A DNA stretch of 64,000 nt from contig JAEOUE010000207.1 in assembly GCA_016839515.1 (NCBI GenBank), forward strand, positions 28,528-92,527, written 5' to 3'. Shown here in pieces: positions 22,532 to 53,169 of the stretch (the first letter of the stretch is position 1; each line of letters opens with the position of its first letter). Position numbers and translations under genes: made by a program. Under the pieces are notes generated by a model, which saw only the letters and a list, made by a program, of their open reading frames with translations, was not told the DNA's origin and made no database searches. The stretch comes from Candidatus Hodarchaeum mangrovi (lineage in GTDB: Archaea; Asgardarchaeota; Heimdallarchaeia; Hodarchaeales; Hodarchaeaceae).

Positions 22532-23145
22532 ACTTCATCAAGAGTTTTTCTTTTTTTAACAAATAGAAAATATTTTGGAGATCCATCTAATTCAGAGAGA
22601 ATTCGATTGGCAAATAAGGAAATAGGATCAGATATTCCCGTACGAATCGAGAAATCTTCAAATGATTCAAAAGGTGCTTTTTTACGGGTGTCTAATATTG
22701 CCCACAATCTTTTATTCCCAATCCCTGGAAGCAACTGTAACTGATGCATTTGAGTTGTGAGGGGATGAGCTTGATTCAAGAATTGAATAAATCGTTTCTC
22801 AGAGTTCTTAATGATTTCTGTAATAACTTGAGTTAGAATTGAACTAGCTGAATTAGAGATTTGATTTAGAGATGTTTGATTTACCTTAATTATTCGTTTA
22901 TTTTTAGGTGAAATCATTATTGCATCATTTACTTTTAGGCCTGTTCCTGCAGTCATTGTTACATCGAAAAATTCGAACCATTGTGACGTTATAACTACAG
23001 CTAAGGGATTAAAATCCTCAGAACGCCTCCGACTCAATGATTTTCCTTGAGGATAAAAGTCAATAACGATAGCAGTACCTAAATCTTCAAATCTAGGTTT
23101 TAAGTCTCTATTTTCCCGTTTAGGTTTAATATCTCGTTGTTTCAT
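22528..23145 (-). CDS. DUF655 (COG1491) putative RNA-binding protein
   Basis: FLNQAHPLTTQMHQLQLLPGIG...PFESFED; conserved neighbour of ksgA. Confidence 0.88.
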   Translation of the reverse strand: MKQRDIKPKRENRDLKPRFEDLGTAIVIDFYPQGKSLSRRRSEDFNPLAVVITSQWFEFFDVTMTAGTGLKVNDAIMISPKNKRIIKVNQTSLNQISNSASSILTQVITEIIKNSEKRFIQFLNQAHPLTTQMHQLQLLPGIGNKRLWAILDTRKKAPFESFEDFSIRTGISDPISLFANRILSELDGSPKYFLFVKKRKTLDEV

Positions 23146-27887: not shown

Positions 27888-28463
27888 TTAGCGAGCACTT
27901 AATGCAACACGTTCAATATCTTGCTTTCGTTTAATAGCATTTGAATTTAGGTTATTTGTTGACGCCATAATAAGCTGATCTGCTAAAATCTCTTCAAATG
28001 GCCTAATATTATTAAATGATGTTTTTCGTACAGCATCTGCAATTAGCCTGAGAGCAACATCAACTCTTCTTTGTGGAGCACTATCAACTGCAGTATGATA
28101 AACAATTCCACCATATGATATTCTAGTAGTTTCTTCTCTTGGAGCACAATTCACAATTGCATCTACTAATACTTGAACAGGATTAGTACTAGTTTTTAAT
28201 TCAATTAGATGAAAAGCAATTTTAACTGCATTGAGGGCAACGAGCTTCTTTCCAGTATTTCTACCTGGACTCATTAATTTATTTGCTAGACGTTCTACAA
28301 TATGGACATAAGACTTGTGAAACCTTTTATGCTCATGTCGGCCTGCACTATGAGGCACGAGTCTATCTGTTAAGTTTATATAACGAGCGAGACTAATATC
28401 TTTAACCTCTACTTCTCCACAGTTCCAAAGATCAAAAATTTTCATATTTTCAGAAGAACTCAT
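27888..28463 (-). CDS. rps7: 30S ribosomal protein uS7
   Basis: PHSAGRH...APREETTRI...ERVALSAR. Confidence 0.97.
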   Translation of the reverse strand: MSSSENMKIFDLWNCGEVEVKDISLARYINLTDRLVPHSAGRHEHKRFHKSYVHIVERLANKLMSPGRNTGKKLVALNAVKIAFHLIELKTSTNPVQVLVDAIVNCAPREETTRISYGGIVYHTAVDSAPQRRVDVALRLIADAVRKTSFNNIRPFEEILADQLIMASTNNLNSNAIKRKQDIERVALSAR

Positions 28464-28484
28464 TCACTTCTAACCTCTTCTAAT

Positions 28485-28808
28485 TTAGGAACGTAATTCA
28501 ATTTCTACAAAAATTAAGCGGGAAACATTTAATCGAATGATTTGTCTCATGGTTCTATCATCAGCATCTATGTCAATCAAGCGTTTATGAATACGAAGTT
28601 CATAATCTTCCCATGTAGCTGTACCCTGTCCGCTAGGGGATTTTCGTACAGGCAATCGTAATTTTTTTGTTGGTAATGGAATAGGCCCTCTCATCTTAAC
28701 TCCTGATTTTTCTGAAATTCTCTTCATTTCATCACAGATTCCATCAAGTTGCCCTACATCCGTACTCATTAAACGAATCCTTGCTACGGAAACCAAATCA
28801 TAATTCAC
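28485..28808 (-). CDS. rps10: 30S ribosomal protein uS10
   Basis: GPIPLPTKKL...RKSPSGQG...RIHKRLIDI. Confidence 0.97.
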   Translation of the reverse strand: MNYDLVSVARIRLMSTDVGQLDGICDEMKRISEKSGVKMRGPIPLPTKKLRLPVRKSPSGQGTATWEDYELRIHKRLIDIDADDRTMRQIIRLNVSRLIFVEIELRS

Positions 28809-29019
28809 CTAAAGAATTTTGCTTTATCTCTTTCAAGAGTGCTCGATTAGGGGGATTGATATGAGGTTATAAGCATTATTGGCTTTTAACATAGTAATTG
28901 AAGTTAGATGAATTTAGATCTTCTTCTAAATCCACATATGTATTATAATTATTAATGAAGAATTCTAAGATGATCCTGTAAATATTACATTAATAAAGCC
29001 ATTGAAAAACCAATATTAA

Positions 29020-29194
29020 CGCCGGGGGAGGGATTTGAACCCTCGAGTACAGGAGTACACTGGCTTTCTATCTATAGCTTGAACAATCTATAGACTCAAG
29101 GCCAGCGCCGTTCTACAGGGTAATTAAAACCTTAACCCGTCCGCTTGGCTTTCAGTTCAATTTCTTTGTAGAGGTAGAAATATGATACCCCGGC
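29020..29194 (-). tRNA. tRNA-Ser(UGA) with three introns: 8/9 (29151-29186), 20a/20b (29113-29138), 37/38 (29066-29094)
   Basis: Removing 36+26+29 nt gives an 84-nt class II cloverleaf with CTGGC CT TGA GA GCCAG, a long variable arm and G73. Confidence 0.9.
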
Positions 29195-29224
29195 AGAGCG
29201 GATGGTTTTGGGTTTATTAGTAAA

Positions 29225-29677
29225 TTAAGTAGTTTTAAAATCGTACATCACAATCGTACCACCAGAGGCAACAATAGTAAGGATAATACCAAGGAATAAT
29301 AAAGTTAATGACGTTCTTATATCATATGCAAATCTTGTAGAGTAATGAATCAGATACAATCCTCCTGTTCCAATTCCAAAGAATAAAGCAGCTATTAAAG
29401 ATTCAACGAGAAATTGCTCACTAGAAGATCGAAAAATGGGAACTAATGCATTCGCTGTTTGACCCATAGGAAGAGGATTCTCGGCAAGATCATAAATCCC
29501 ACCAGCTAGTATGAATACCACCGCAAACAAAGTAATGGCTAATAGATATTTATGAGGAGCTTCATATGGTAACTCAATTTCAGGGATACGAAAATCAATA
29601 TTAGGTCTCTTAAAACCTGGAAGCCATGGGATACCTTGAGCTTTTTCGGTTTCTTTATCATTTTGTTTTTTTGACAC
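29225..29677 (-). CDS. OSTC/DC2 (OST3/OST6-family) oligosaccharyltransferase accessory subunit
   Basis: AGGIYDLAENP...QFLVES motif with three TM helices, as in eukaryotic OSTC. Confidence 0.75.
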   Translation of the reverse strand: MSKKQNDKETEKAQGIPWLPGFKRPNIDFRIPEIELPYEAPHKYLLAITLFAVVFILAGGIYDLAENPLPMGQTANALVPIFRSSSEQFLVESLIAALFFGIGTGGLYLIHYSTRFAYDIRTSLTLLFLGIILTIVASGGTIVMYDFKTT

Positions 29678-33802: not shown

Positions 33803-34261
33803 ATGGCCCGAATGCATGCAAGAAGAAAAGGAAAAAGCGGATCTACAAGACCAATATGGAGAAAAACTCCAGAATGGGTTCCTTATTCTCCCGAAGAAAT
33901 TGAAAAACTAGTTATCGATAAAGCGAGAGAAGGTTTAGGGTCAGCACAAATTGGATTGATCTTACGTGATGCTTATGCGATACCTAGCATAAAAAAGATT
34001 ACAGGAAGGTCAGTTACGAAAATCATGAAGGAGAATGATCTAGGACCAAAAATGCCTGAAGATTTCCTAAATCTCGTACGTCAAGCATTAAACCTTAGAA
34101 ATCATCTAGAAAGTGGGAATAAGAAAGATAAGCATTCTAGACGAGGACTACAGCTAGTTGAATCTAAAATTCGACGATTAACAAGATATTATAAAAAGAA
34201 AGGGGTTTTTGATTCAGATTTTAAATATGAACCCTCAAACGCAACCCTATATCTACGTTAA
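33803..34261 (+). CDS. rps15: 30S ribosomal protein uS15
   Basis: [14 protein letters not shown]...ESKIRRL. Confidence 0.97.
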
Positions 34262-52972: not shown

Positions 52973-53076
52973 CGGCACCAGCAGGACTTTCACTCCAAAA
53001 AATCCTCTTTTGGGGCTTTGAACCTGCGACCACCCGGTTAACAGCCGGACGCTCTACCTAACTGAGCTATGATGCC
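52973..53076 (-). tRNA. tRNA-Asn(GUU) with 30-nt T-loop intron at 59/60 (52987-53016)
   Basis: TCCGG CT GTT AA CCGGG; central helix TTCA/TGAA, bulges AA|G and AG|T; 74-nt mature tRNA. Confidence 0.92.
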
Positions 53077-53092: not shown

Positions 53093-53169
53093 TGGGCCTG
53101 GGGGGATTTGAACCCACGAACCAACCGGTTATGAGCCGGTCGCTCTAAACCAGACTGAGCTACAGGCCC
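53093..53169 (-). tRNA. tRNA with CAU anticodon, most likely tRNA-Ile2
   Basis: GGGCCTG acceptor and CGG CT CAT AA CCG arm resemble tRNA-Ile(GAU); 16 nt upstream of tRNA-Asn. Confidence 0.88.

What the first reader, a model, noticed from the sequence alone, without database searches (positions are those of the whole stretch)
29020..29194. Three-intron tRNA-Ser(UGA) including an intron at position 8/9
Seen: intron 1 (36 nt) has helix CGGG/ACTG, bulges GT|A and AA|A, inner stem TCA/TGA, and outer pairing of G1C2 with G10C11, so the acceptor stem must unfold. Intron 2 (26 nt) has helix GCGG/CTGT with bulges AC|G and AG|A. Intron 3 (29 nt) is canonical. Splicing yields a standard 84-nt tRNA-Ser. 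I do not recall 8/9 among reported archaeal intron sites; it leaves an 8-nt first exon. Standard scanners would probably miss this gene.
Basis: partly seen in the sequence, partly recalled or inferred. Interest (0 to 1): 0.85.

Follow-up and report, generated by a model that had tools for sequence, protein, structure and literature searches.

The report
Three-intron serine tRNA gene, Asgard
A serine tRNA gene of an Asgard archaeon is interrupted by three small introns, one only eight bases from its start, and related genomes conserve both the gene pieces and the RNA folds needed to cut the introns out.

Summary
Window 29194-29020 (minus strand) encodes tRNA-Ser(UGA) in four exons (8, 12, 18, 46 nt) separated by introns of 36, 26 and 29 nt. 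Removing them gives an 84-nt tRNA that ARAGORN calls Ser(tga). ARAGORN and Rfam miss the unspliced gene, and no other Ser(UGA) gene was found in the assembly. The organism is an Asgard archaeon (most record titles say Hodarchaeota or Heimdallarchaeota). Of 22 syntenic gene copies in 21 congeneric genomes, 15 carry an intron at 8/9 and 7 are contiguous there, which fixes the junction. Intron 1 forms a bulge-helix-bulge motif in all 15 carriers: 95.7% of 255 cells pair, against 24-43% in slid registers. New here: the outer helix of that motif is built from a conserved 5' leader pairing with exon 2. All 15 carriers keep this leader. It also persists in a clade that lost the intron recently, and is gone in an older intron-less clade. 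Two EndA paralogues and RtcB are present. No RNA evidence could be obtained. Multi-intron Asgard tRNA genes are already published. I did not find the 8/9 site or the leader helix in the text I could read, and supplements were closed.

The parts
29233..29240 (-). TTTTAAAA, a TATA-like element 39-46 nt upstream of G1, inside the last codons of the upstream ORF. Possible promoter (inferred).
   Evidence: Sequence read. An equivalent TTTAAAA/TATAAAA/TTCAAAA is conserved in the relatives. Thermofilum tRNA promoters lie 30-49 nt upstream of the mature 5' end (PMC3218864, passage seen).
29195..29206 (-). Conserved 5' leader (positions -12 to -1). Bases -8 to -2 pair with exon 2 (A13 to A20) and form the outer helix of the intron 1 motif.
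   Evidence: The motif is present in 15 of 15 intron 1 carriers. The leader helix is in the MFE of the 5' module in 14 of 14 genes tested. One pair shows G-C to A-U with a G:U intermediate.
29187..29194 (-). Exon 1 (tRNA positions 1-8).
29151..29186 (-). Intron 1, 36 nt, at 8/9.
   Evidence: Absent from 7 orthologous copies.
29139..29150 (-). Exon 2 (positions 9 to about 20a: D-stem 5' strand and most of the D-loop).
29113..29138 (-). Intron 2, 26 nt, in the D-loop two bases 5' of A21 (about 20a/20b by my own numbering).
   Evidence: Present in all 22 copies. Central helix pair C16-G changes to U16-A in L018 and L019.
29095..29112 (-). Exon 3 (D-loop end, D-stem 3' strand, anticodon stem 5' strand, anticodon UGA, G37).
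29066..29094 (-). Intron 3, 29 nt, at the canonical 37/38 site.
29020..29065 (-). Exon 4 (position 38 to discriminator G73: variable arm, T-arm, acceptor 3' strand). No encoded CCA.

Best explanation
This is the functional, and apparently the only, tRNA-Ser(UGA) gene of an Asgard archaeon. Its precursor carries three protein-spliced bulge-helix-bulge (BHB) introns: at 8/9, in the D-loop (about 20a/20b) and at 37/38. They are cut by a two-subunit EndA endonuclease and the exons are joined by RtcB. [quoted passage not shown] The two 3-nt bulges are G7-U8-intron base 1 and the last two intron bases plus A9. The outer helix is G1C2:G10C11 extended by about seven pairs between the 5' leader and exon 2. 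The sequence comparison shows the gene structure, the junctions, the conserved pairing and the presence of the enzymes. The following steps are inferred. The leader helix holds the 8-nt exon in place for cleavage and ligation. Intron 1 is removed early, probably while the transcript is still being made, before the 3' acceptor strand appears and before RNase P removes the leader. Intron 2, whose central helix needs the same bases 15-19, is cut afterwards. My odds: real gene with an intron at 8/9, about 0.93; leader helix functional in splicing, about 0.7; fixed order of splicing, about 0.4.
For: The spliced product is a standard class II tRNA-Ser(tga). No other Ser(UGA) gene was found: ARAGORN's C138 call is a false positive (30.8% GC, broken arms, 178-nt 'intron'), and BLAST of the spliced product hits only this locus over exons 3 and 4. 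20 of 21 congeneric genomes hold the locus, and all 21 loci are syntenic with the same flanking genes. Exons are conserved (median pairwise identity 0.94) while introns diverge (0.59, 0.71, 0.62). 15 of 22 gene copies carry intron 1 and 7 are contiguous at 8/9. RNAalifold, given no structure, returns the outer helix, 4-bp helix, two 3-nt bulges and inner helix, with 4 pairs showing changes on both sides. 95.7% of 255 cells are paired against 24-43% in slid registers, and 0 of 500 shuffles reach the covariation score. The leader motif is in 15 of 15 carriers and 3 of 7 non-carriers. Those 3 form a clade (100/99) nested among carriers, and the other intron-less clade lacks the motif. The leader helix has median probability 0.98 in the nascent 5' module. 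Two EndA paralogues and RtcB are present. Ser(UGA) genes of another family in the same class have no 8/9 intron.
Against: There is no RNA evidence. The two metatranscriptome contigs cover only 28452-28828, not the gene. The window's own intron 1 central helix has 3 of 4 pairs and its intron 3 helix has 2 of 4. In the full precursor the GC-rich acceptor stem wins: its probability is 0.99 and that of the leader helix is about 0, and the intron 1 conformer costs 2.8-10.7 kcal/mol. The leader helix has only one pair with a change on both sides. All sequences that carry it lie in one clade, so it may be a single event. Three intron-less genes keep the leader, so another role for it is not excluded. 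The transcription start was not determined. Relatives are not independent, and the structure tested was derived from the same sequences.
Confidence: 0.85

Rival explanations
1. The gene and its three introns are real, but the conserved leader is not part of the splice substrate. It would be a promoter-proximal or initiator element, or another processing signal, and the 8/9 motif would work with only G1C2:G10C11 as its outer helix.
For: Three intron-less orthologues (L009, L012, L018) keep the leader motif. 5 of the 9 outer-helix pairs never vary, and only one shows a change on both sides. The leader helix has probability about 0 in the full precursor.
Against: Leader position -5 follows base 16 of exon 2: G-C in 12 carriers, A-U in 2, G:U in 1. 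-4 changes from U:G to C-G in two genes. The slid-register control gives 123 of 140 cells against 49-70 of 140. The three intron-less keepers form one recent-loss clade, and the older intron-less clade has lost the motif. A 2-bp outer helix would hold an 8-nt exon poorly (inference).
Confidence: 0.2
2. Intron 1 is excised at 9/10 (or 7/8) rather than 8/9. In the window's gene the first intron base and the first exon 2 base are both A, so 8/9 and 9/10 give the same product.
For: The ambiguity is real in the window. In the five L005-type genes and in L020/L048 (AT|A bulge), 7/8 and 8/9 give the same product (L048).
Against: In the seven carriers with GT|T and AA|A or AG|A bulges, only 8/9 restores the sequence seen in the 7 contiguous orthologues. 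Only the 8/9 register gives the motif: 94 of 98 cells against 13-46 of 98 when slid.
Confidence: 0.04
3. The locus is a decaying pseudogene or an unspliceable remnant, and serine UCA codons are read by another tRNA.
For: Both scanners used here miss it. Two of the three central helices are imperfect in this genome. The assembly is 91% complete, so a second gene could be unassembled.
Against: Exons are 0.89-0.95 identical to congeners while intron 1 is 0.51-0.60 identical. The cloverleaf of the product is intact. The architecture is conserved at a syntenic site in 21 genomes. No other Ser(UGA) candidate was found.
Confidence: 0.03

Closest known systems
[quoted passage not shown] 2024, PMC11291895, passages seen; Goswami et al. 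2026 preprint 10.64898/2026.10.13.758758, abstract, Results parts 1-2, section 2.6 and passages read)
   Same: Asgard host. Several BHB-type introns per tRNA gene at non-canonical sites, especially the D-arm and T-arm. Standard annotators miss them. Two EndA paralogues. Introns gained and lost repeatedly among close relatives.
   Different: [quoted passage not shown] Acceptor-stem and junction insertions are treated only in a supplementary note that I could not open. The word 'leader' occurs 0 times in the preprint's main text.
Multi-intron tRNA genes of Thermoproteales (Sugahara et al. 2007/2008, as summarised in PMC4090602 section 4, read, and PMC4033280, passages)
   Same: Up to three BHB or relaxed-motif introns in one tRNA gene. 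Cleavage by the broad-specificity (alpha-beta)2 endonuclease. An intron at 3/4 is cited as an extreme case close to the 5' end.
   Different: A different phylum. The sites named in the text I read are 3/4, 20/21, 22/23, 25/26, 29/30, 30/31, 45/46, 53/54, 56/57 and 59/60, not 8/9. I saw no description of a co-varying leader and exon helix. Relatives here reach four introns (L011).
Split and permuted tRNA genes (Nanoarchaeum, Caldivirga, Thermofilum, Cyanidioschyzon; PMC4090602, PMC4033280, PMC3218864)
   Same: Sequence outside the mature tRNA (leader or trailer) pairs to build the helix that presents the BHB to the endonuclease.
   Different: There, leader and trailer of two transcripts, or of the two termini, pair with each other. 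Here the 5' leader of one continuous transcript pairs with an internal exon to complete the motif of an ordinary cis-intron.
Ordered removal of several BHB motifs in Cyanidioschyzon merolae pre-tRNAs (Soma et al. 2013, PMC3728597, passages seen)
   Same: Several BHB introns in one precursor are processed in a set order.
   Different: That system is eukaryotic, the order was shown by experiment, and it was ascribed to motif free energy and position, with each motif able to fold independently. Here the order is only inferred, and it would be forced by helices that share bases 15-19 and acceptor bases 3-6.

Membership tests
Archaeal bulge-helix-bulge (BHB) tRNA intron | Removal of the insert restores a canonical cloverleaf tRNA. 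| tested here: met
   ARAGORN calls the 84-nt product tRNA-Ser(tga) and finds 0 genes in the unspliced 175 nt.
Archaeal bulge-helix-bulge (BHB) tRNA intron | A 4-bp central helix flanked by two 3-nt bulges on opposite strands, with the cut after the second bulge base (definition as in PMC4090602 section 4). | tested here: met
   Intron 1: 4 of 4 pairs in 14 of 15 carriers and 3 of 4 in the window. Intron 2: 4 of 4 in the window. Intron 3: 2 of 4 in the window, 4 of 4 in L014 and L020. The window's introns 1 and 3 are therefore relaxed forms.
Archaeal bulge-helix-bulge (BHB) tRNA intron | At least one flanking helix (outer h or inner h'). | tested here: met
   Intron 1: outer helix 97.8% and inner helix 88.3% of cells paired. 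Introns 2 and 3: D-stem or anticodon stem outside, and 3-6 bp inside.
Archaeal bulge-helix-bulge (BHB) tRNA intron | The host encodes a splicing endonuclease able to cut non-canonical sites ((alpha-beta)2 or epsilon2 type) and an RtcB ligase. | tested here: inconclusive
   Two EndA paralogues, 182 and 216 aa, each with both Pfam domains, 35% identical. RtcB scores 416 bits. Subunit assembly and substrate range cannot be tested here. My reading that the second paralogue lacks a catalytic His relies on a recalled motif.
Archaeal bulge-helix-bulge (BHB) tRNA intron | The intron is excised and the exons are ligated in vivo. | not testable with these tools
   The RNA runs held only contigs that lie outside the gene.
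Class II tRNA-Ser | Long variable arm, anticodon for a serine codon, intact acceptor, D, anticodon and T arms. | tested here: met
   ARAGORN drawing of the product: 7-bp acceptor stem, 3-bp D stem, 5-bp anticodon stem plus a G:U closing pair (as ARAGORN draws it), variable arm with a 4-bp stem, 5-bp T stem, anticodon tga. That G73 is the serine discriminator is recalled knowledge.
Split or permuted tRNA | Exons transcribed separately or in permuted order. | tested here: not met
   All four exons lie in order on one strand within 175 nt.

The most novel reading that the evidence does not exclude
The 5' leader is a co-evolving, integral part of the splice substrate. It builds the outer helix of the 8/9 motif and tethers the 8-nt first exon for ligation. 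Because it competes with the acceptor stem for bases 1-6, and with the intron 2 motif for bases 15-19, it hard-wires an order of maturation. Intron 1 is removed on the nascent transcript first, then intron 2, and only then 5' end trimming by RNase P. The leader motif decays once the intron is lost. This would be a built-in RNA folding timer for tRNA maturation in relatives of the eukaryotic ancestor.
Probability: 0.35. Interest if true: 0.6.

Novelty: new variant of a known kind. Interest (0 to 1): 0.45.

Why it matters
The gene appears to be the only reader of UCA serine codons found in an AT-rich Asgard genome, yet ARAGORN and the Rfam tRNA model cannot see it. Annotations of such genomes will therefore wrongly report a missing tRNA. 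The case extends protein-spliced introns to the junction between the acceptor stem and the D-arm, leaving an 8-nt exon. It also suggests how so small an exon can be handled: a conserved leader pairs with the next exon. If that is right, splicing, 5' end trimming and folding of this tRNA are coupled in a fixed order, which can be tested in vitro. The mix of presence and absence among close relatives (two changes for the 8/9 intron and four for a 59/60 intron on a 21-genome tree) gives dated examples of intron loss, including the decay of an accessory element afterwards.

Tried and rejected
RNA evidence. One search of public runs gave 20 rows holding the stretch, only 2 of them RNA and with small shares. 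Laying X19, X20, X24 and X4 showed the RNA contigs at 28636-28828 and 28452-28608 only (the S10 gene region), none on the tRNA and no joints. This is neither support nor evidence against.

A second Ser(UGA) gene. ARAGORN with introns gave one on C138:60622-60890. I rejected it as a false positive.

A 9/10 or 7/8 junction. Rejected by the register and by the contiguous orthologues.

Other 8/9 introns in this genome. My T-arm and acceptor-anchored finder gave 35 candidates, and the sub-threshold Rfam hits were inspected. Together they revealed hidden genes with D-loop, post-D-stem and T-loop introns, but no second 8/9 case. The finder cannot see genes whose acceptor or T-arm is itself interrupted, and roughly ten expected anticodons are still unaccounted for (my own estimate, not counted in any call).

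Thermodynamic support for the central helices. Pair probabilities are near 0 even for the canonical intron 3, so this measure says nothing about any central helix. Only the leader-helix figures were used.

The Promineifilum hit of the collection scan (L021) is a chance match in 60.8% GC DNA that looks protein-coding, with no tRNA.

A C/D-box RNA in intron 1. Read by eye only: no C box seen, and the CUGA at the 3' end of the window's intron is kept only in L002 among the relatives. Dropped.

Literature. Searches found no text naming an 8/9 intron or a leader and exon helix for a cis-intron. The tool cannot search for strings containing a slash. Figures are not held, Marck and Grosjean 2003 is not held, Sugahara 2008 was not seen, and supplements are closed.

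Full report
WHAT IS THERE. The plus strand at 29020 begins with a reverse-complemented T-arm and acceptor, so the gene runs on the minus strand from 29194 to 29020. The result is an 84-nt product (65.5% GC) that ARAGORN folds as a class II tRNA-Ser with anticodon tga. The unspliced 175 nt gives no gene. ARAGORN on the window (5 genes) and Rfam at gathering score (7 tRNA matches) both skip the locus. With a permissive threshold, Rfam sees only the 3' T-arm and acceptor (17.5 bits against a cut-off of 29).

THE HOST. The window lies in a 4.0-Mb, 348-contig assembly with 33% GC. It is 91% complete, with 6% contamination. A pattern scan of one genome per species for the exon 1, exon 2, exon 3 architecture found 14 stretches. 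One is a chance match in GC-rich DNA of a Promineifilum record. The other 13 are MAGs titled Hodarchaeota (5), Heimdallarchaeota (4), and Thorarchaeota, Promethearchaeota, Hermodarchaeota and 'uncultured archaeon' (1 each). The host is therefore an Asgard archaeon that most submitters place in the Hodarchaeota/Heimdallarchaeota group. Only 29 tRNA matches reach the Rfam cut-off in the whole assembly, so many tRNA genes are hidden.

IS IT THE ONLY Ser(UGA) GENE? ARAGORN with introns allowed offers one other candidate on contig C138. It has 30.8% GC, mismatched arms and a 178-nt 'intron', and I reject it. BLAST of the spliced product finds exons 3 and 4 only at this locus. The roughly 9% of the genome that is unassembled remains a caveat.

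COMPARATIVE TEST. 20 of 21 other genomes of the genus hold a homologous locus. All 21 loci, counting the window's, share the same upstream 150-aa membrane-protein gene. Where the locus reaches far enough, they also share the downstream S10 and S7 genes (Pfam for S10). I parsed 22 gene copies, because one genome has a tandem pair. Introns 2 and 3 are present in all 22. Intron 1 is present in 15 and absent in 7, where positions 8 and 9 are adjacent. Exons are conserved (median pairwise identity 0.94 over 66 pairs of the 12 complete carriers) and introns are not (0.59, 0.71, 0.62). In the window the first intron base and the first exon 2 base are both A, so 8/9 and 9/10 give the same product. In the seven carriers whose intron begins with T and ends with A or G, only 8/9 restores the sequence of the contiguous orthologues.

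THE INTRON 1 MOTIF. In the geometry of the archaeal BHB motif (definition read in PMC4090602 section 4), acceptor bases C3-G6 pair with intron bases n-5 to n-2. The pairs are 4 of 4 in 14 of 15 carriers, with five different intron tetramers, and 3 of 4 in the window. The bulges are G7-U8 plus the first intron base, and the last two intron bases plus A9. The inner stem is built from unrelated sequences, and three of its four pairs show changes on both sides. RNAalifold on the 15 carriers, given no structure, returns exactly this outer helix, central helix, two 3-nt bulges and inner helix. On that alignment 95.7% of 255 cells are standard pairs, against 24.0-43.4% when the 3' partners are slid by 1-3 columns. 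None of 500 shuffles reaches the observed covariation score or the observed 17 double-change cells, while 76 of 500 reach the count of pairs with a double change. My own anchored count agrees: 94 of 98 cells against 13-46 of 98 for the central plus inner helices. Two caveats apply. The sequences are related, and the structure was derived from them.

THE LEADER HELIX (new here). The outer helix does not stop at G1C2:G10C11. After an invariant U-1/C12 mismatch, leader bases -2 to -8 pair with exon 2 bases A13 to A20, giving 123 of 140 cells against 49-70 of 140 when slid. Position -5 pairs with base 16 as G-C in 12 carriers, A-U in 2 and G:U in 1. Position -4 is U:G in most and C-G in two, including the window. 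All A-U sequences lie in one clade, so this may be a single compensatory event. The leader motif is present in 15 of 15 carriers and in 3 of 7 non-carriers. On a tree of the three flanking proteins (448 columns), intron 1 needs two changes of state. The three intron-less genes that keep the leader (L009, L012, L018) form a clade with support 100/99, nested in a 97/94 clade of carriers, which indicates a recent loss. The other three intron-less genomes (L014, L017, L019; support 91/94) have no leader motif. The root is a midpoint root only. Outside the genus, Ser(UGA) genes of another family in the same class have at most the canonical intron and are contiguous at 8/9.

ENERGETICS. The unconstrained MFE of leader plus exon 1, intron 1 and exon 2 contains the leader helix in 14 of 14 genes tested. 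Its median pair probability is 0.98 in that nascent module. It falls to 0.78 once intron 2 and exon 3 are added, and to about 0 in the full precursor, where the acceptor stem has probability 0.99. The full window precursor folds at -62.2 kcal/mol (z = -3.8) with the acceptor stem formed. Forcing the intron 1 conformer costs 2.8-10.7 kcal/mol in the 12 complete carriers. The central helices get probabilities near 0 even for the canonical intron, so that measure is uninformative for them. From this I infer, but do not show, that intron 1 is recognised early, before the 3' acceptor strand is made, and before RNase P removes the leader.

INTRONS 2 AND 3. Intron 2 lies in the D-loop, two bases 5' of A21. 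Its central helix (G15, C16, G18, G19 with the intron's 3' end) has 4 of 4 pairs in the window, and C16-G changes to U16-A in L018 and L019. Those same bases form the leader helix, so the two motifs cannot coexist. Intron 3 is at 37/38. Its central helix is relaxed in the window (2 of 4 pairs) but complete in L014 and L020, and it is flanked by a 6-bp inner stem and the anticodon stem.

ENZYMES AND TRANSCRIPTION. The genome has two EndA paralogues, of 182 and 216 aa. Each has the N-terminal and the catalytic-type domain, and they are 35% identical over 95 residues. In that alignment a His of the first paralogue faces a Ser in the second. That this His is catalytic is recalled, not tested. The pair fits the (alpha-beta)2 type, which is reported to cut non-canonical introns (PMC5829648, abstract in a search listing only) and to be common in Asgard genomes (44 of 60; preprint section 2.6). 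RtcB is present at 416 bits. The gene starts 30 nt after a co-oriented ORF, and a TTTTAAAA lies 39-46 nt upstream. That is within the 30-49 nt range reported for Thermofilum tRNA promoters (PMC3218864, passage). The leader is therefore likely to be transcribed, but the start was not mapped.

COMPARISON WITH WHAT IS KNOWN. Multiple BHB introns at non-canonical sites are long known in Thermoproteales, with three as the stated maximum and 3/4 as an extreme site (PMC4090602 section 4; PMC4033280 passages). In Asgard archaea, 92-95% of tRNA genes in three complete genomes carry introns (PMC11291895, passage). A 2026 preprint reports up to five intervening sequences per gene, many of them missed by tRNAscan-SE. 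That preprint puts 'acceptor stem and junctions' into a supplementary note that I could not open, and it never uses the word 'leader'. Leader and trailer pairing that builds a BHB is known for split and permuted tRNAs. Ordered removal of several BHB motifs has been shown in a red alga. The finding is therefore a new variant of a known kind. The mechanism class is established. I did not find the site, or the leader-completed motif of a cis-intron, in what I could read.

VERDICT. The interest is moderate: an essential tRNA gene hidden from ARAGORN and Rfam, a splice site 8 nt from the 5' end, and a testable model in which the leader holds the mini-exon and sets the order of maturation. Direct RNA evidence is missing.

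Noticed in passing
window 52973-53076 (-): A hidden tRNA-Asn(GUU) gene of 104 nt, with an intron of about 30 nt in the T-loop, just 3' of the tRNA-Met at 53093-53169. Rfam sees only the core (model positions 8-63, 26.2 bits, below the cut-off) and ARAGORN misses it.
   Followed up: partly
G000 contigs C10:21504-21663(-), C63 near 33987-34043(-), C10 near 22733-22789(-), C10 near 29287-29364(+), C153:51463-51569(-): Further tRNA genes that were missed or mis-called. Leu(UAA) has D-loop and 37/38 introns. Gly(CCC) and Gly(GCC) have T-loop introns. Phe(GAA) has an intron after the D stem and a T-loop intron. Pro(UGG) has a D-loop intron, and ARAGORN calls it Thr(tgt). Three of the four T-loop introns (Asn, Gly(GCC), Phe) end alike just before the T-stem 3' strand; Gly(CCC) ends differently.
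   Followed up: partly
L011 (genome G009) and L016 (genome G003, cut by the contig end): Orthologous Ser(UGA) genes with four introns: 8/9, D-loop, 37/38 and a 29-nt intron at 59/60. The 59/60 site gives the best motif in every one of the 7 complete genes that carry it. This intron needs four changes of state on the flanking-gene tree.
   Followed up: yes
L003 (genome G012): A tandem pair of Ser(UGA) genes about 180 nt apart. The upstream copy has intron 1 and a variant acceptor 5' strand, but no matching 3' acceptor strand, so it may be a pseudogene. The downstream copy lacks intron 1 and has the 59/60 intron.
   Followed up: partly
L045 (genome G020), minus strand, about 100 nt: A tRNA-His(GUG) with a 29-nt intron best placed at 10/11 (central helix 4 of 4 pairs, inner stem 6 bp; removal restores a 4-bp D stem). 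The window genome's tRNA-His (C341:3914-3984) is uninterrupted. Introns very near the 5' end are therefore not confined to Ser(UGA) in this genus.
   Followed up: partly
G000:C150:20025-20096 (-), upstream of the window: A tRNA-like gene that ARAGORN cannot assign ('???', anticodon given as two letters). The anticodon stem seems to enclose a 6-nt loop.
   Followed up: no
window 29225-29677 (-): The conserved 150-aa membrane protein just upstream of the tRNA gene has only a weak match to the OST3/OST6 family, below the cut-off (17.9 bits against 27). It is 63-75% identical across the 20 congeners.
   Followed up: no
G000:C315:5938-6948 (-): The RtcB match starts at profile position 87, in an open frame of 339 aa. 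The N-terminal part may be missing, split or on another frame.
   Followed up: no
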